From NCBI RefSeq assembly GCF_003790525.1, contig NZ_CP033635.1: a DNA stretch of 64,000 nt; one strand, 5' to 3'. The stretch comes from Escherichia coli. GTDB lineage: Bacteria; Pseudomonadota; Gammaproteobacteria; Enterobacterales; Enterobacteriaceae. The first letter of the stretch is position 1, and every line of letters begins with the position of its first letter. The translations under genes were made by a program, and so were the position numbers. This document shows, one piece after another, positions 23,846 to 29,178 of this stretch. The notes beneath the pieces are model-generated. The model ran no database searches. It had not been told where the DNA came from and was given only the letters and a program-made list of their open reading frames with translations.

Positions 23846-24348
23846 TGATACCTCTGTAACCACAATTTTGTTTAATTATCTCAACGTGCACATTTTCTGA
23901 ACATACATGCAGCGCGTGAATGTGTTAAACAATAGTAGATGACTTTATCCGCAGTAATCAAAGGTTTTGAGTGAGCAACTCTGCGTCAGGAAAGGGCATT
24001 TTCCTGAATATGTTCACATCATATAAAGAAATACAGATAAAGTTATTATCTGCTTGTGGTGGTGAATGCACTGACCGACCTATAAGGAAAGGCCAAACAA
24101 GAACACGGTTGCAAAAACCGTGCCCTTAAATATTGAATTTCTATTCAGAACACTTTCTTAAAATGTCATTCAGACCATTTCGAAGAATTTCGCATAAAAA
24201 CGTTCTGTTACGTTGAACCCTTACGCCATCTGCCTTTCAGCCCCTAAGCCATCACACTTCGAGTACAAGTGTTACATTGCGGGTATCTTTGAGCAACGAG
24301 TTTTGTGTACACTTTTGCGTACTCGCAAGCCAGATGTGTACACATTCA

Positions 24349-25407
<1,059 letters not shown>

Positions 25408-25408
25408 A

Positions 25409-25828
25409 TCAGGGAATATTCAGGTAGCAAACGCAAGCTCAGGAACCACATGGAGCTTTATGAAATCAACTGGTAACGCTGTAGCGCCTGGAGCATGGGT
25501 TCCGAATTCAGATGGCCGCCTGAAAGATGGAGTGTCCAGAATTGGAGACCCGCTCAGTAAGATGGAAATGCTAAAAGGTTGTTCCTGGACGCGAAAAGAT
25601 ACCGGACAATGGGGGATTGGGTTTATCGCGCAGGATGTTAAGAAAATCTTCCCCCAGGCAGTAACTGAGGGAGGTGATCGTCAACTTCCTGATGGAACTA
25701 TGGTGGAAGGAGTACTCTCTCCAGATACTTACGGCGTTGCGGCAGCGTTGCATCATGAAGCGATTCTGGCACTAATGAACGAACTCAGTGAATTACGAGA
25801 AGAAGTGAATGCGCTGAAAAGTGAGTAA
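25409..25828 (+). pseudogene. phage tail fibre/tailspike C-terminal fragment (intramolecular chaperone-like domain)
   Basis: translation ...NSDGRLKDGVSRIGDPLSKMEMLKGCSWTRKD...ELSELREEVNALKSE resembles the self-cleaving chaperone C-terminus of tail fibres; no N-terminal part, starts at the IS boundary. Confidence 0.45.
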
Positions 25829-25916
25829 GGGAATCATTCTTATAATCTGGAAGCCGCAACCACGCCGGATTGTACTTAATCAGTGTGACGGTTCAAGGCG
25901 TTTAATCTGAAAACAG

Positions 25917-26144
25917 CTACATATCAGTCTCTTCAAACATTTCCTGAACAGTACGGCTTATCTGTTCATTCTCATGCTTGTTGGCGTCAGTGTTGATCGC
26001 CGGCAATGTCATCATCGGTTTAACCCGGACATCAGCGCCGGGGAAAATCCGGTGAACCCTCTTGGTCAACTCGCCCAGAATGATATCTTTTGCACCGGGC
26101 AGTCCATCAAAATTCCTTTTGCCATAAACGAGTTCCACGAACAT
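25917..26144 (-). CDS. DinI-family (damage-inducible protein I / MsgA-like) protein
   Basis: 75 aa, MFVELVYGKRNFDGLPGAKDIILGELTKRVHRIFPGADVRVKP... matches DinI family pattern. Confidence 0.65.
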   Translation of the reverse strand: MFVELVYGKRNFDGLPGAKDIILGELTKRVHRIFPGADVRVKPMMTLPAINTDANKHENEQISRTVQEMFEETDM

Positions 26145-26219
26145 TGCTCATTGCCTCTTTACTGGGTGTATATACAGTATTTATACTGTGTTTTTATCCG
26201 GTATTCAAGAGAGGGCGTA

Positions 26220-26573
26220 ATGATGCCACGACGCAGCGATATTGAAATAGCCTGGTATTCTTCGATACAGCAAGAGCCGAATGGCCGGAAGACCGTCACT
26301 ACACAGCGATTTGTTCAGGGGTTGAGCAAAGTTAACTGGGAATTCTCACTCAAAGATGCTAATGCCTGGATCGAATCCAGCGTGAGCACTTTTAAATATT
26401 TATCAATGGTAGAGGGGGAAGAACGCACTTTCATGCTCTATAGCCTTGATTTATGCGATGCACATTTCCACAACCTAGTCAGGACAACCTCTTTTCTAAT
26501 AAAATGTAGATGCCTAATTTTAGGCGTCTACATAATTAATGATGATTTATTACAATTATTTTCTAGATACTAA
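26220..26573 (+). CDS. hypothetical protein
   Basis: ATG at 26220 with gagaggg RBS upstream; earlier part of the listed ORF is antisense to the DinI-like gene; 3' end runs into AT-rich DNA. Confidence 0.3.
   Translation: MMPRRSDIEIAWYSSIQQEPNGRKTVTTQRFVQGLSKVNWEFSLKDANAWIESSVSTFKYLSMVEGEERTFMLYSLDLCDAHFHNLVRTTSFLIKCRCLILGVYIINDDLLQLFSRY
26504..26533 (-). terminator. hairpin terminator downstream of the sulfatase-like gene
   Basis: 12-bp inverted repeat atgtagatgcct-aatttt-aggcgtctacat, T-rich flank on minus strand. Confidence 0.5.
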
Positions 26574-28363
26574 TCGTGAAATAATGACATTGAATAAATC
26601 CACGACGGGGTCATGTTAATTAACTTATCATAATTAAAGTTATCACTGTTTTCACAGACATGCTTTGCGTTGTGATTAAATGATACCAATCCAGATTGAA
26701 TGAAATGTTTATCAACTAATGAAGATACACAGAAAAAAGGTTTTCCATTGGCGTCGGTTATGAATTTTTTAATGGCGTCTTTATCATTTGATTTAATAAG
26801 TACAGGAACATCACCAAAATCGAGTGGGGTTGTGCTCATTTTAAAGACGAAATCTTCATCTTTTTCTTCTCCGATTTTGTTGAAAATATTACTTGGTAGC
26901 ACCCCATTTTCGACGAAATATTTATTTAGTGGTGGTTTATGGTCACCGTAAAAGACGATTACAGCATTTGGATCTATTTTTTCTACTTGCTGTGAAAATT
27001 GAACGAATCTTTTGACTGCCTCATTAATCTCATAGGTATAAACACCTTCACCATAATCATTAATGTGTTGATAAGGACCATGAGTTGACATAGTGATCAA
27101 ATGTACAAAAATATCTTTGTTTCCTGCATTTTGGATGGCTTTTAATGCTGCATTGTAAAGCAGGTAGTCATCAGGTTGCCACTGCCATGGTTTTTTAATA
27201 CTGCTATACTCTGGTGGTAAATCTCCCATATTAATAATGCTATCAAATCTATCAAATCCAAATTTAGGGTAAATTTTATTCCTATACCAAAAGTCTGCTT
27301 GGTAATTATGTGCTGCGAAAGTAATATAGCCTTTGTTTTTCAGGGCATTAGGTAATGCGTCAACTTTTGGTTTGAATGCATCTGAATATTCTTGATAGAT
27401 GATTCCTGATATTTTATCTGAATTACTTGGTAGTCCTGTCAGCATTTCAAATTCGGCATTTGCGGTACCTCCACCGTAAACTGGTGAGATGGCCCGTAAT
27501 TCACTGTAACCTTCATCAATAACAGGTTTGAAATTTTCTCGGAAGTTTTTTTTATCATACCAACATGATTCACATAAAACATAAATAATGGTTTTATTTT
27601 TTATATGAGTGGATACTAAAGATCTTTTTTCATCTAAATATCTTAATTGTTCTGCATCAGTTGCATGTGGTACAGATTTTCTGACACTTGTTTGTATTAT
27701 ATGCATTGGCAAGCCATTAACGCCAATATTTTGAGACCAATTCCAGTAAATATATTTTATATTTAAGTTGTTCGCGCTGGAGTTTATGATTTCAGAAATC
27801 CTATTGTTAGGGCTAAAAATGGTTCCAATATAGGGGTAGAATGAAAAGGGGATCGTAATGATAATTAAAAGAAATAACGATATATAATTTTTTCTTGTTG
27901 TGACCGTTTTTTTGCTAAGTAGGATTGAGATTATTGCGCCAATTAGAATAGCGACAGAGTAAGTAATGGATGATAAGTTGAGGTATTTTCCTGCGACACT
28001 CAAATTGAATCCAGAAACAATGTCATTAAATGATAAAGGCTCACCGGTTAACGCCATTTTAGTACTGTTCACAAACATCAATGTTATAATTGCGATGCCT
28101 GATAAATAAGAACATAGAAAAATTGGAATGTTTATTATTCTAAATAACAAATAAATAAACAAAATGGGGGATGAACGCCAGATGAAATTCAATATTGCAC
28201 CAATTAACTCTTTAGGCGGTTCAATATTTCCTATGATAACTATTGACTGATTTAGAAAACAAAATAAGTACAATAAAAACATAACGTTGACAATGTCGAA
28301 AACATATGATTTCAACTTTAAGTTTTTATATCTTGTAACGACTTTGCTCAAACCGATACTCAT
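26570..28363 (-). CDS. sulfatase/LTA-synthase-like membrane protein (alkaline phosphatase superfamily; possible phosphoglycerol or phosphoethanolamine transferase)
   Basis: 597 aa; N-terminal multi-TM region, C-terminal domain with metal-site-like motifs HLITMSTHGPYQ and VIVFYGDHKPP; visibly AT-rich compared with flanks. Confidence 0.7.
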   Translation of the reverse strand: MSIGLSKVVTRYKNLKLKSYVFDIVNVMFLLYLFCFLNQSIVIIGNIEPPKELIGAILNFIWRSSPILFIYLLFRIINIPIFLCSYLSGIAIITLMFVNSTKMALTGEPLSFNDIVSGFNLSVAGKYLNLSSITYSVAILIGAIISILLSKKTVTTRKNYISLFLLIIITIPFSFYPYIGTIFSPNNRISEIINSSANNLNIKYIYWNWSQNIGVNGLPMHIIQTSVRKSVPHATDAEQLRYLDEKRSLVSTHIKNKTIIYVLCESCWYDKKNFRENFKPVIDEGYSELRAISPVYGGGTANAEFEMLTGLPSNSDKISGIIYQEYSDAFKPKVDALPNALKNKGYITFAAHNYQADFWYRNKIYPKFGFDRFDSIINMGDLPPEYSSIKKPWQWQPDDYLLYNAALKAIQNAGNKDIFVHLITMSTHGPYQHINDYGEGVYTYEINEAVKRFVQFSQQVEKIDPNAVIVFYGDHKPPLNKYFVENGVLPSNIFNKIGEEKDEDFVFKMSTTPLDFGDVPVLIKSNDKDAIKKFITDANGKPFFCVSSLVDKHFIQSGLVSFNHNAKHVCENSDNFNYDKLINMTPSWIYSMSLFHD

Positions 28364-28471
28364 ATTAATGCTCTATCTCTAGAATAATGAACTTTTATGC
28401 AGAATATCACAAAATGACATTTTGGTTAAATAAATCATGGTAGTCTCTCTTACTAATCATGAGTTTAAAAT

Positions 28472-28729
28472 CTAATTAGTAGAGTATCTAATCTGTCTTT
28501 GGTATGTGTAAAAATCCAGGTTTATCCCACCATCCGGGGCGTATCCCCAGAAAACTGGATCAAGATGGAGTTTCTCGTCACGTTCGCTCAGAAGCAGAAC
28601 TTTGGTGCCTGGCGCAACGTTGAAACGTCCGATCGGTTCAGGGTCATATGGAATGTCTTGCTCGACTTCATCTGCGAGAAGGGCGAGATAGTCTTCACGC
28701 GTCATTGACTGTGAAAAGCGTCCGCACAT
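28472..28729 (-). pseudogene. SOS-response-associated peptidase (SRAP/YedK-like), truncated
   Basis: begins MCGRF (Cys2 nucleophile hallmark) but is only 85 aa, far shorter than an intact family member; C-terminus diverges next to the AT-rich insert. Confidence 0.55.
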
Positions 28730-28881
28730 AGAAACCTCCAGCCAGATGTCAGACTGAAAGTATAAGTCGTAGCGAAAAAAAAGGGGCGCTTAGATTAATG
28801 TGTACTTAAATGCGCCCTTTATTATTGATTATGTTGACTGTCTTTCGTTATTGCTTTGAATTTAAATAATATTTAATTTAT

Positions 28882-29178
28882 TCAAAACACTTTCTTAAAT
28901 GGTTTCACTGAAACGTGTTCATAGACTCCTGCCGCTACGTACGGGTCAGCATCGGCCCAGGCCTGAGCTGCTTCCAGCGACTCAAATTCAGCAATAACGG
29001 TTGAGCCAGTAAATCCCGCAGCCCCTGGATCGTTACTGTCTACTGCTGGCATTGGACCGGCGGTCAACAAACGACCTTCATCATGCAGTAACTGTAAACG
29101 TGCTAAATGTGCCGGACGAACGGAAAGGCGTTTTTCGAGGCTATCAGCTTTGTCTTGAGCGTAAATAACATACAACAC
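28882..29178 (-). CDS. yciI: YciI-like protein
   Basis: start placed at in-frame GTG giving 98 aa ([10 protein letters not shown]...); located beside tonB. Confidence 0.8.

What the first reader, a model, noticed from the sequence alone, without database searches (positions are those of the whole stretch)
26570..28363. AT-rich gene for a sulfatase/LTA-synthase-like membrane protein
A 597-aa protein with an N-terminal polytopic membrane domain and a C-terminal alkaline-phosphatase-superfamily domain (motifs HLITMSTHGPYQ and VIVFYGDHKPP), encoded on DNA much more AT-rich than the surrounding chromosome, so it was probably acquired from a low-GC donor. Enzymes of this architecture transfer phosphoglycerol or phosphoethanolamine onto envelope glycans or lipids, so it could alter LPS, OPG or ECA and affect phage adsorption or antimicrobial-peptide resistance.
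Basis: partly seen in the sequence, partly recalled or inferred. Interest (0 to 1): 0.5.

Follow-up and report, generated by a model that had tools for sequence, protein, structure and literature searches.

The report
Prophage-borne LtaS-like envelope phosphotransferase gene
This is an intact, AT-rich gene left behind by a decayed prophage in a minority E. coli lineage; it encodes an uncharacterised membrane enzyme of the lipoteichoic-acid-synthase type that probably adds glycerol-phosphate to a surface sugar polymer such as the O antigen.

Summary
Window 26570-28363 (-) is an intact 597-codon ORF with both quoted motifs. Its GC is 32.5% (GC3 29%) against 49.6% for the backbone.

The protein has five N-terminal transmembrane helices and a periplasmic alkaline-phosphatase-superfamily domain (Pfam Sulfatase, 1.4e-25). 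Its only solved relatives by sequence are glycerol-phosphate transferases: GacH, LtaP and LtaS. The metal ligands, the Thr nucleophile and the glycerol-phosphate contacts are invariant across 36 homologues. It is not a formylglycine sulfatase, and not an OpgB, EptA/MCR or Shigella Lpt-O relative.

The gene is the largest intact ORF in a 4.7-kb prophage remnant between kch and yciI, bounded by an att-like repeat. It occurs in 30 of 5426 complete E. coli genomes, always at this site and at least 99.8% identical.

Homologues elsewhere are solitary, equally AT-rich mobile genes. The more distant ones sit inside O-antigen or polysaccharide clusters.

The best reading is a phosphatidylglycerol-dependent glycerol-phosphate transferase that decorates O antigen or LPS, that is, a lysogenic-conversion gene. 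Donor and acceptor are inferred, not shown. RefSeq already annotates the gene generically, with a truncated start. Interest is moderate.

The parts
26570..28363 (-). LtaS/GacH-like membrane phosphotransferase gene, 597 aa. Five TM helices (about residues 19-183), a linker, and a periplasmic catalytic domain (about 257-597). Key codons in window coordinates: E265 27569-27571, T300 27464-27466, H352 27308-27310, R361 27281-27283, H428 27080-27082, D474/H475 26939-26944.
28055..28057 (-). Codon M103, the start used by RefSeq/PGAP (495-aa product WP_224114834.1). It is judged too short because it removes TM1-3 and invariant K102.
24129..24162 (.). Left att-like copy of the imperfect ~34-bp direct repeat that bounds the island. 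The exact core AACACTTTCTTAAA is at 24149-24162.
28868..28901 (.). Right att-like copy of the repeat (core at 28886-28899). It overlaps the 3' end of yciI.
24349..24477 (+). Fragment of a phage integrase (Arm DNA-binding N-terminus only).
24486..25364 (-). IS3-family transposase remnant that replaced most of the prophage.
25460..25828 (+). C-terminal fragment of a phage tail-fibre protein (phrog_1980, 4.6e-34).
25917..26144 (-). DinI-like phage gene (phrog_189 and phrog_36550).
26220..26444 (+). Truncated phage gene of unknown function (phrog_3893).
28506..28729 (-). Frameshifted fragment of a phage SOS-response-associated peptidase (SRAP/YedK-like, phrog_1599), at the right end of the island.

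Best explanation
The gene encodes a functional inner-membrane enzyme of the LtaS/GacH clade of the alkaline-phosphatase superfamily. It is the last intact cargo gene (moron) of a decayed prophage integrated at the kch/yciI site.

Proposed mechanism, by analogy with LtaS and GacH:
- Five transmembrane helices hold a periplasmic, metal-dependent catalytic domain at the outer face of the inner membrane.
- Thr300, activated by a metal bound to Glu265, Asp474 and His475, attacks the head-group phosphodiester of phosphatidylglycerol.
- Diacylglycerol is released and a glycerol-phosphate-threonine intermediate forms.
- A hydroxyl of a periplasmic glycan then takes over the sn-glycerol-1-phosphate.

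The acceptor is most probably the O antigen, either undecaprenyl-linked or already on LPS, or another part of LPS. The result would be a negatively charged decoration that changes the serotype and the receptor seen by phages (lysogenic conversion or superinfection exclusion).

Shown here: the fold, the topology, conservation of the catalytic and ligand residues, the prophage origin, the restricted distribution, and the association of distant homologues with polysaccharide gene clusters.

Inferred, not shown: the donor lipid, the acceptor, expression, and any phenotype.
For: Fold and family:
- Pfam Sulfatase, 1.4e-25.
- Both the single sequence and the 36-sequence profile hit only glycerol-phosphate transferases in the PDB: GacH 1.5e-18, LtaP 4e-15, LtaS 1e-11.
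- The AlphaFold2 model has pLDDT 88.3. Its best Foldseek PDB matches are LtaP, GacH and LtaS.

Active site:
- The GacH preprint lists E488/T530/D711/H712 as Mn ligands, equal to LtaS E255/T300/D475/H476. It lists G529/T530/H650 on the phosphate and H580/N586/R589 on the glycerol, equal to LtaS H347 and R356.
- The aligned residues here are E265, G299, T300, H352, R361, H428, D474 and H475. All but G299 (conserved in at least 90% of sequences) are invariant in 36 homologues of 32-66% identity.

Topology: five TM helices with positive-inside loops place the domain in the periplasm.

Prophage origin:
- A 4.7-kb insert relative to K-12, flanked by an att-like repeat.
- Phage tail-fibre, DinI, SRAP and integrase fragments surround the gene.
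- The same site holds a larger lambdoid prophage in another strain.

Distribution: 30 of 5426 complete genomes, same locus, at least 99.8% identical and full length. The ORF was translated and found intact in the three genomes checked.

Acceptor:
- Homologues lie inside O-antigen or polysaccharide clusters in Aeromonas salmonicida.
- Three wzm/wzt clusters contain one. One of these proteins shares a 90% cluster with a Sinorhizobium meliloti protein.
- One homologue lies next to a Wzx-like flippase.
- Others lie in such clusters in Pseudomonas putida, a Desulfuromonadaceae MAG and Bdellovibrio.
- Several are adjacent to Acyl_transf_3 genes, the usual partners in periplasmic O-antigen modification.
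Against: - No experiment exists for any member of this subfamily, and the paper searches found none.
- The family label does not fix the donor. Shigella Lpt-O carries the same NCBI name yet transfers phosphoethanolamine. OpgB, a proven phosphoglycerol transferase, does not show the H/W/R motif in the profile alignment.
- The E. coli gene and its close enterobacterial relatives are solitary, not in glycan clusters.
- Carriers have at least two different O-antigen clusters, O153-like and O1-family. The enzyme is therefore either not specific to one O unit or targets something conserved.
- In SMS-3-5 the wzx gene is annotated as truncated.
- The promoter scan found nothing above chance.
- DNA this AT-rich is typically silenced by H-NS in E. 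coli (established knowledge), so expression is uncertain.
- The gene matches no PHROG family and no sequenced phage genome closely.
Confidence: 0.5

Rival explanations
1. The enzyme uses the same architecture with a different donor. It transfers phosphoethanolamine from phosphatidylethanolamine, or another head group, to O antigen or LPS, as Shigella Lpt-O, EptB/EptC and OpgE do.
For: Most characterised membrane-bound alkaline-phosphatase-superfamily transferases of Gram-negative bacteria are phosphoethanolamine transferases, and phosphatidylethanolamine is the main E. coli lipid (established knowledge). Lpt-O, a mobile serotype-converting gene, carries the same NCBI name. Full-length MCR-1 is a good Foldseek match.
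Against: No phosphoethanolamine transferase passes E 1e-3 in the sequence or profile searches of the PDB, although MCR-1, EptC and PbgA are in it. Lpt-O is not detectably related: BLASTP E 0.78, hhalign probability 17%. The glycerol-binding His and Arg of LtaS and GacH are invariant here.
Confidence: 0.15
2. The enzyme is a glycerol-phosphate transferase, but the acceptor is not LPS. It could be osmoregulated periplasmic glucans (as for OpgB and CgmB), enterobacterial common antigen, a capsule or a protein.
For: Rhizobial cyclic-glucan modification proteins (CgmB-like) appear among the AlphaFold DB structural neighbours, and Sinorhizobium plasmid/chromid records hold weak tblastn matches. The gene persists in strains with different O antigens. 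It is solitary and present at a fixed site across Kosakonia and Enterobacter asburiae genomes, which would suit a conserved acceptor.
Against: OpgB is only a remote relative: BLASTP not significant, hhalign E 7e-6. E. coli already has opgB. No homologue was found next to opgGH-like or ECA genes, whereas several lie in O-antigen or polysaccharide clusters.
Confidence: 0.2
3. The gene is a silent relic. It was once a phage moron but is no longer expressed or useful in E. coli, and it survives only because the acquisition is recent.
For: All 30 copies are nearly identical, so there has been little time for decay. Every neighbouring phage gene is already broken. No promoter signal stands above chance. 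The DNA is very AT-rich. RefSeq does not even call the full ORF.
Against: This is the only long ORF that stayed intact while ISs and deletions removed about 90% of a prophage in three differently rearranged versions of the island. The catalytic residues are intact. Solitary homologues are maintained in several other genera.
Confidence: 0.12
4. The protein is a true sulfatase or phosphodiesterase that hydrolyses a periplasmic substrate rather than transferring a group.
For: The Pfam family name is Sulfatase, and sulfatases appear among the weaker structural matches.
Against: There is no [CS]x[PA]xR formylglycine motif anywhere in the protein. The nucleophile position is Thr in GGGTAN, as in LtaS and GacH. 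A polytopic membrane anchor is typical of the lipid-dependent transferases.
Confidence: 0.03

Closest known systems
GacH / SccH (streptococcal glycerol-phosphate transferases that decorate rhamnose polysaccharides; PDB 5U9Z, 6DGM)
   Same: It is the best sequence match among solved structures (profile E 1.5e-18). It has the same catalytic Thr, metal ligands and glycerol-phosphate contacts (8 of 9 residues). The proposed job is the same: decorating an already exported glycan with sn-glycerol-1-phosphate taken from phosphatidylglycerol. Distant homologues of the query, like gacH, sit inside the glycan's gene cluster.
   Different: GacH has eleven predicted TM helices and the query has five. Identity is only about 19%. 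The host is Gram-negative, the acceptor would be O antigen or LPS in the periplasm, and the E. coli gene is a solitary prophage cargo gene.
LtaS / LtaP (lipoteichoic acid synthase and primase of Firmicutes; PDB 2W5Q, 4UOO, 4UOP)
   Same: It shares the five-TM plus extracytoplasmic-domain architecture. Residue spacing is almost identical: E265/T300/H352/W359/R361/H428/D474/H475 against LtaS E255/T300/H347/W354/R356/H416/D475/H476. LtaS W354 and H416 are recalled from memory; the other LtaS numbers are quoted in the GacH preprint read. LtaP is the top Foldseek match.
   Different: The query scores 27 bits against the NCBIfam LtaS equivalog, whose cut-off is 970. E. coli makes no lipoteichoic acid, so a polymerase role on a glycolipid anchor is not expected.
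OpgB (MdoB), phosphatidylglycerol:membrane-oligosaccharide glycerophosphotransferase of E. coli
   Same: It is a Gram-negative, periplasm-facing, phosphatidylglycerol-dependent glycerol-phosphate transferase of the same superfamily.
   Different: It is only remotely related: BLASTP not significant, hhalign probability 85%. It is 763 aa with a different membrane domain, a chromosomal core gene, and acts on OPG.
Lpt-O / Opt of Shigella flexneri plasmid pSFxv_2 (O-antigen phosphoethanolamine transferase, serotypes Xv, 4av, Yv)
   Same: It is a mobile, solitary gene for a membrane-anchored sulfatase-domain enzyme that converts serotype by adding a phospho-head-group to the O antigen in the periplasm. 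NCBI gives it the same product name.
   Different: There is no detectable sequence relationship (BLASTP E 0.78, hhalign probability 17%). It is plasmid-borne rather than phage-borne, and it transfers phosphoethanolamine.
Phage-encoded O-antigen modification genes (gtrABC glucosylation, oac/Acyl_transf_3 acetylation)
   Same: The genetic logic is the same: an AT-rich cargo gene at the end of a temperate prophage near the att site, acting on the periplasmic face. An Acyl_transf_3 gene is adjacent to homologues in Pragia and in two wzm/wzt clusters.
   Different: The chemistry and the protein family are entirely different.

Membership tests
Alkaline-phosphatase superfamily, Pfam Sulfatase (PF00884) | Significant match to the family HMM | tested here: met
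   E 1.4e-25 over residues 257-481.
LtaS/GacH-type glycerol-phosphate transferases | Thr nucleophile and metal ligands (Glu, Thr, Asp, His) | tested here: met
   E265, T300, D474 and H475 align to GacH E488/T530/D711/H712. They are invariant in 36 homologues.
LtaS/GacH-type glycerol-phosphate transferases | Residues that hold glycerol-phosphate (GacH G529, H650, H580, N586, R589; LtaS H347, R356) | tested here: met
   G299, H428, H352 and R361 are conserved, and W359 is conserved in at least 90% of sequences. Only the N586 position differs (F358), giving 8 of 9 residues overall.
LtaS/GacH-type glycerol-phosphate transferases | Polytopic membrane anchor with the catalytic domain outside the cytoplasm | tested here: met
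   Five helices with positive-inside loops. This is predicted only.
LtaS/GacH-type glycerol-phosphate transferases | Uses phosphatidylglycerol and transfers sn-glycerol-1-phosphate | not testable with these tools
   Needs biochemistry or product analysis.
LtaS proper (lipoteichoic acid synthase, NCBIfam NF053595 equivalog) | Whole-protein score above the curated cut-off | tested here: not met
   27.4 bits against a cut-off of 970.
GacH family | Eleven transmembrane helices | tested here: not met
   Five helices are predicted here. GacH is described with eleven.
GacH family | Gene located in the cluster of the glycan it decorates | tested here: inconclusive
   This does not hold for the E. coli gene, which is in a prophage remnant. 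It does hold for distant homologues.
OpgB (phosphoglycerol transferase I) | Sequence similarity to OpgB or a match to its NCBIfam model | tested here: not met
   BLASTP best E 0.26. hhalign probability 85% over the catalytic core only. No NCBIfam hit other than LtaS and one spurious match, even at E up to 10.
Phosphoethanolamine transferases (EptA/MCR-1, EptC, Lpt-O) | Sequence or profile similarity to characterised members | tested here: not met
   None passes E 1e-3 in the PDB searches. For Lpt-O, BLASTP E is 0.78 and hhalign probability 17%. Only fold-level similarity is seen.
Formylglycine-dependent sulfatases | [CS]x[PA]xR motif at the nucleophile position | tested here: not met
   The motif occurs nowhere in the protein. 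The nucleophile is Thr in GGGTAN.
Prophage cargo (moron) / lysogenic-conversion gene | Lies inside a prophage bounded by att repeats, is not needed for the phage cycle, and has atypical composition | tested here: met
   A 4.7-kb insert with an att-like repeat, phage gene fragments on both sides, and GC 32.5%.
Prophage cargo (moron) / lysogenic-conversion gene | Found in intact, sequenced phages or changes the host phenotype | tested here: not met
   No close hit in 50,697 phage records and no PHROG family. The four IMG/VR hits lie just outside attR of a Kosakonia P2-like prophage. Phenotype is not testable here.
Anti-phage defence systems (PADLOC) | Match to a defence-system model | tested here: not met
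   0 families at E 0.01.

The most novel reading that the evidence does not exclude
This family would be the first phosphatidylglycerol-dependent, periplasmic glycerol-phosphate transferases known to decorate Gram-negative O antigens or LPS. It would be spread as solitary AT-rich cargo by temperate phages and ISs. That would add glycerophosphorylation to glucosylation and acetylation as a phage-associated route of serotype conversion and receptor masking in Enterobacterales, alongside the plasmid-borne phosphoethanolamine addition by Lpt-O.
Probability: 0.35. Interest if true: 0.6.

Novelty: new member of a known kind. Interest (0 to 1): 0.36.

Why it matters
If the enzyme is active, it would put a negatively charged glycerol-phosphate on the O antigen or LPS of a multidrug-resistant extra-intestinal E. 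coli lineage (SMS-3-5 and its relatives from humans, poultry and dogs).

Such a decoration would not be predictable from the O-antigen gene cluster. It could therefore confound genome-based serotyping, glycoconjugate vaccine design and the choice of phages for therapy.

It would also assign a function to a widespread but unstudied Gram-negative branch of the LtaS family. That includes genes sitting in O-antigen clusters of Aeromonas, Pseudomonas and rhizobia.

On the practical side, the RefSeq gene model is about 100 codons too short at the N-terminus and should be corrected.

Tried and rejected
- **Sulfatase reading.** Rejected: there is no formylglycine motif and the nucleophile is Thr.
- **OpgB paralogue.** Rejected: only remote profile similarity.
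- **Relative of Shigella Lpt-O.** Rejected despite the identical NCBI product name.
- **Known anti-phage defence gene.** No PADLOC hit.
- **Known phage protein family.** No PHROG hit, and no close match in phage or plasmid collections.
- **IMG/VR hits.** They looked like proof of carriage by P2-like phages. Comparison with a prophage-free Kosakonia genome showed the gene lies about 130 bp outside the duplicated 50-bp att site.
- **Link to one O serotype.** Rejected. At least 50 of the 80 genomes with the O153-like wzy lack the gene, and one carrier has an O1-family cluster.
- **Divergent alleles elsewhere in E. coli.** None found with sensitive blastn.
- **Promoter and terminator scan.** Nothing above the shuffled expectation.
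- **Literature.** Nine searches found no study of this subfamily and no report of phage-borne glycerophosphorylation of O antigens.
- **Neighbour annotation.** Local single-sequence phmmer annotation of the 25 genome loci had low sensitivity. NCBIfam left several neighbours unnamed, so the fraction of homologues in glycan clusters is a lower bound.
Full report
**1. The observation**

The minus-strand ORF at 26570-28363 is real. It is 597 codons long, starts with ATG and has a single terminal stop. Both quoted motifs are present, at residues 421 and 468.

Its GC content is 32.5% (GC3 29.4%). The window outside the island region has 49.6%. Only 0.8% of equally long windows are as AT-rich, and all of those overlap this gene.

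RefSeq annotates the gene in E. coli SMS-3-5 as 'LTA synthase family protein', but starts it at Met103 (495 aa) or, in sister genomes, gives a 502-aa product. The long ORF is the correct one. Homologues of 560-610 aa from many genera align from residue 1. The conserved blocks include the first three membrane helices and invariant Lys102, just upstream of the RefSeq start. Older GenBank records do carry the 597-aa product, named 'sulfatase-like hydrolase/transferase', on about 1000 contigs, including some from Shigella boydii.

**2. The protein**

Pfam finds one domain, Sulfatase (PF00884), at residues 257-481 with E 1.4e-25. NCBIfam gives only a far-sub-threshold match to Gram-positive LtaS: 27 bits against a cut-off of 970. 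Nothing matches OpgB or the Ept enzymes, even at E up to 10.

Against all PDB sequences, the single protein and a profile of 36 homologues hit only glycerol-phosphate transferases. These are GacH of Streptococcus pyogenes (1.5e-18), the Listeria primase LtaP (4e-15), and LtaS of Listeria, Staphylococcus and Bacillus.

An AlphaFold2 model built on the alignment is confident, with mean pLDDT 88.3 and pTM 0.87. Its best Foldseek PDB matches are LtaP, GacH and LtaS. Full-length MCR-1 also matches because it shares the membrane-plus-catalytic layout.

The model and a hydropathy profile give five transmembrane helices at about 19-38, 50-76, 81-106, 130-153 and 160-183. K/R-rich segments at the N-terminus and between helices 4 and 5 place the catalytic domain in the periplasm. 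A strongly conserved loop, N-x-T-K-x-x-L-T-G-E-P-L-S-F-N-D, lies on the periplasmic side between helices 3 and 4. That is where a lipid head group would be presented. This last point is inference.

**3. The active site**

The GacH preprint (10.1101/337519) states three things:
- Mn2+ is bound by E488, T530, D711 and H712, equivalent to LtaS E255, T300, D475 and H476.
- The phosphate of sn-glycerol-1-phosphate is held by G529, T530 and H650.
- The glycerol is held by H580, N586 and R589, with H580 and R589 equivalent to LtaS H347 and R356.

In the HMMER alignments these positions correspond here to E265, T300, D474, H475, G299, H428, H352, F358 and R361. Eight of the nine are conserved. All but Gly299 (conserved in at least 90% of sequences) are invariant across 36 homologues that share only 32-66% identity with the query. 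The local motif H-x6-W-x-R has the LtaS spacing.

There is no [CS]x[PA]xR formylglycine motif, so the protein is not a sulfatase.

Two named comparators are not close relatives.
- Shigella flexneri Lpt-O is the plasmid-borne O-antigen phosphoethanolamine transferase, and NCBI also calls it 'LTA synthase family protein'. It is not detectably related: BLASTP E 0.78, hhalign probability 17%.
- E. coli OpgB matches only at profile level: probability 85%, E 7e-6.

The balance of evidence favours glycerol-phosphate from phosphatidylglycerol as the group transferred. This remains an inference from homology. OpgB shows that the H/W/R signature is not obligatory for this chemistry. Lpt-O shows that the database name does not fix the donor.

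**4. Genomic setting in E. coli**

The window matches E. coli SMS-3-5 (NC_010498.1) at 100% identity, apart from one nested 1.3-kb IS copy that the window lacks.

Alignment with K-12 shows a 4.7-kb insertion between kch and the 3' end of yciI, at about 24163-28867. It is bounded by an imperfect 34-bp direct repeat with the 14-bp exact core AACACTTTCTTAAA.

The insertion contains:
- the N-terminal Arm fragment of an integrase;
- an IS3-family remnant;
- the C-terminal fragment of a tail-fibre protein (phrog_1980, 4.6e-34);
- a DinI-like gene;
- a truncated phrog_3893 gene;
- the LtaS-like gene;
- a frameshifted SOS-response-associated peptidase fragment.

In another strain the same site holds a much larger lambdoid prophage with a complete integrase. 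The island is therefore the stump of a prophage, and the LtaS-like gene is the only long ORF that survived.

Exactly 30 of 5426 complete E. coli genomes carry the gene. It is always chromosomal, always at this locus and always full length, at 99.8-100% identity. Sensitive blastn finds no diverged alleles. Three differently rearranged versions of the island were inspected, with extra IS2, ISEc53 or group II intron insertions. All three keep the 597-codon frame, with at most one amino-acid change.

**5. Relatives and their neighbourhoods**

Full-length homologues at 45-66% identity occur in Pseudescherichia, Enterobacter asburiae and roggenkampii, Citrobacter, Pragia, Mangrovibacter and Kosakonia. 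More distant ones, at 28-43%, occur in Aeromonas, Pseudomonas, Alcaligenes, Cupriavidus, rhizobia, Geobacter and Bdellovibrio. All hosts are Gram-negative.

In the six loci measured, the gene has 30-38% GC in hosts of 39-55%. AT-richness therefore travels with the family and does not point to a particular donor.

The close enterobacterial relatives are solitary and often sit beside mobile DNA:
- an Ogr/Delta fragment in Citrobacter;
- a prophage-rich region, next to an Acyl_transf_3 gene, in Pragia;
- an integrase island in one Enterobacter genome;
- an IS3 element within the sap operon in Kosakonia sacchari;
- the att site of a P2-like prophage in Kosakonia radicincitans, where the gene lies just outside the prophage.

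The distant relatives are informative about the acceptor:
- In Aeromonas salmonicida the gene is IS-flanked inside the O-antigen cluster, among FnlABC-like, WecA-like, RmlC, Wzz and ligase genes.
- In three loci it is co-directional with, or adjacent to, wzm/wzt O-polysaccharide export genes, GT2 glycosyltransferases, a Bac_transf initiating transferase, a Wzy_C/ligase-type protein and an Acyl_transf_3 gene. One of the three proteins shares a 90% cluster with a Sinorhizobium meliloti protein.
- One homologue is next to a Wzx-like flippase.
- In Pseudomonas putida the gene sits between rmlB/rmlC and Bac_transf/GT2 genes.
- In a Desulfuromonadaceae MAG it sits beside wzm/wzt and a giant GT2.
- In Bdellovibrio it sits beside GmhB-like, GlmS and exopolysaccharide amidotransferase genes.
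- Others, in Phaseolibacter and Vitreoscilla, are solitary.

This recurring association with surface-polysaccharide assembly genes is the main argument that the acceptor is an O antigen or a related glycan. GacH is similarly encoded in the cluster of the carbohydrate it decorates.

**6. What weakens the acceptor assignment in E. coli**

Carriers do not share one O antigen.
- SMS-3-5 has an O153-like cluster. Its wzy occurs in 80 genomes. At least 15 of those are carriers and at least 50 are not.
- Strain MS 21-1 carries an O1-family cluster and still has an intact gene.

The enzyme therefore either recognises a feature common to several O units, targets a conserved part of LPS or another periplasmic glycan, or is idle in some backgrounds. 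In SMS-3-5 the wzx gene is annotated as truncated, with an IS1 nearby.

Expression is unknown. The consensus promoter scan is not above chance. DNA this AT-rich is commonly silenced by H-NS (established knowledge).

**7. Comparison with known systems, and novelty**

In mechanism, the closest known systems are GacH/SccH and LtaS/LtaP.

In genetic logic, the closest are the phage-borne gtr and oac O-antigen modification genes and the plasmid-borne lpt-O.

The protein meets the defining structural and active-site features of LtaS/GacH-type glycerol-phosphate transferases. It fails membership of LtaS proper (score), of the GacH family (five helices, not eleven), of OpgB, of the phosphoethanolamine transferases and of the sulfatases.

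No paper in the searchable library describes this subfamily or a phage-associated glycerophosphorylation of a Gram-negative O antigen. The nearest mention is the Acinetobacter K-locus gene pgt1, a 'phosphoglycerol transferase' with no defined role.

The gene is already in the databases under generic names. I therefore classify it as a new, uncharacterised member of a known kind of enzyme, with a plausible but unproven lysogenic-conversion role.

**8. Verdict**

| Claim | Confidence |
|---|---|
| LtaS/GacH-type periplasmic phosphotransferase acquired on a prophage | about 0.95 |
| It transfers glycerol-phosphate | about 0.6 |
| The acceptor is O antigen or LPS | about 0.45-0.5 |

Interest is moderate, at 0.36.

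Noticed in passing
window 28055-28363: RefSeq/PGAP gene models start this gene at Met103 (495 aa) or give a 502-aa product. This omits three conserved transmembrane helices and invariant Lys102. Older GenBank entries have the full 597 aa.
   Followed up: yes
window 24129-24162 and 28868-28901: An imperfect 34-bp direct repeat (exact core AACACTTTCTTAAA) marks a prophage attachment site that overlaps the last codons of yciI. The same site holds a larger lambdoid prophage with an intact integrase in NZ_OZ261667.1 (L020).
   Followed up: yes
window 24983-24988: The window is 100% identical to SMS-3-5 (NC_010498.1) on both sides of this point, but it lacks a 1,330-bp nested IS3-family copy that the RefSeq record has here. 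Sister genomes carry other insertions in the island (IS2, ISEc53 with a ClbS-like gene, a group II intron).
   Followed up: partly
L030 19058-21447 (NC_010498.1 1049057-1051446): In the O153-like O-antigen cluster of SMS-3-5, the wzx flippase is annotated as truncated and an IS1A sits just before gnd. The strain may make little or no O antigen.
   Followed up: no
L030 14281-16047: A 588-aa hypothetical protein sits in the O153-like O-antigen cluster. By eye its N-terminus looks HAD-like (YDVWDTIL), and no family search was run on it. Its function is unassigned, and O153 contains ribofuranose, whose pathway genes are unknown.
   Followed up: no
L010 9833-9882; L022 9758-9807 and 9885 onward: In Kosakonia a P2-like prophage (tape-measure, U, D, Ogr) integrates at a 50-bp att site about 130 bp upstream of the homologous gene. 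IMG/VR provirus calls therefore wrongly include the gene at their edge.
   Followed up: yes
L014 6713-9782: In Kosakonia sacchari the homologue, together with an IS3 element, is inserted between the sapB-like and sapC-like permease genes of the sap peptide-transport operon.
   Followed up: no
L005 11865-12839; L026 11946-13097; L027 8741-9886: An Acyl_transf_3 (O-acetyltransferase-type) gene lies directly next to the homologue in Pragia fontium and in two wzm/wzt polysaccharide clusters. This suggests a recurring pair of periplasmic glycan-modifying enzymes.
   Followed up: partly
L043 8155-9791: In Bdellovibrio the homologue is preceded by a glycerol-3-phosphate-oxidase-like FAD enzyme and a GmhB-like HAD phosphatase. 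This is an intriguing link to glycerol-phosphate metabolism.
   Followed up: no
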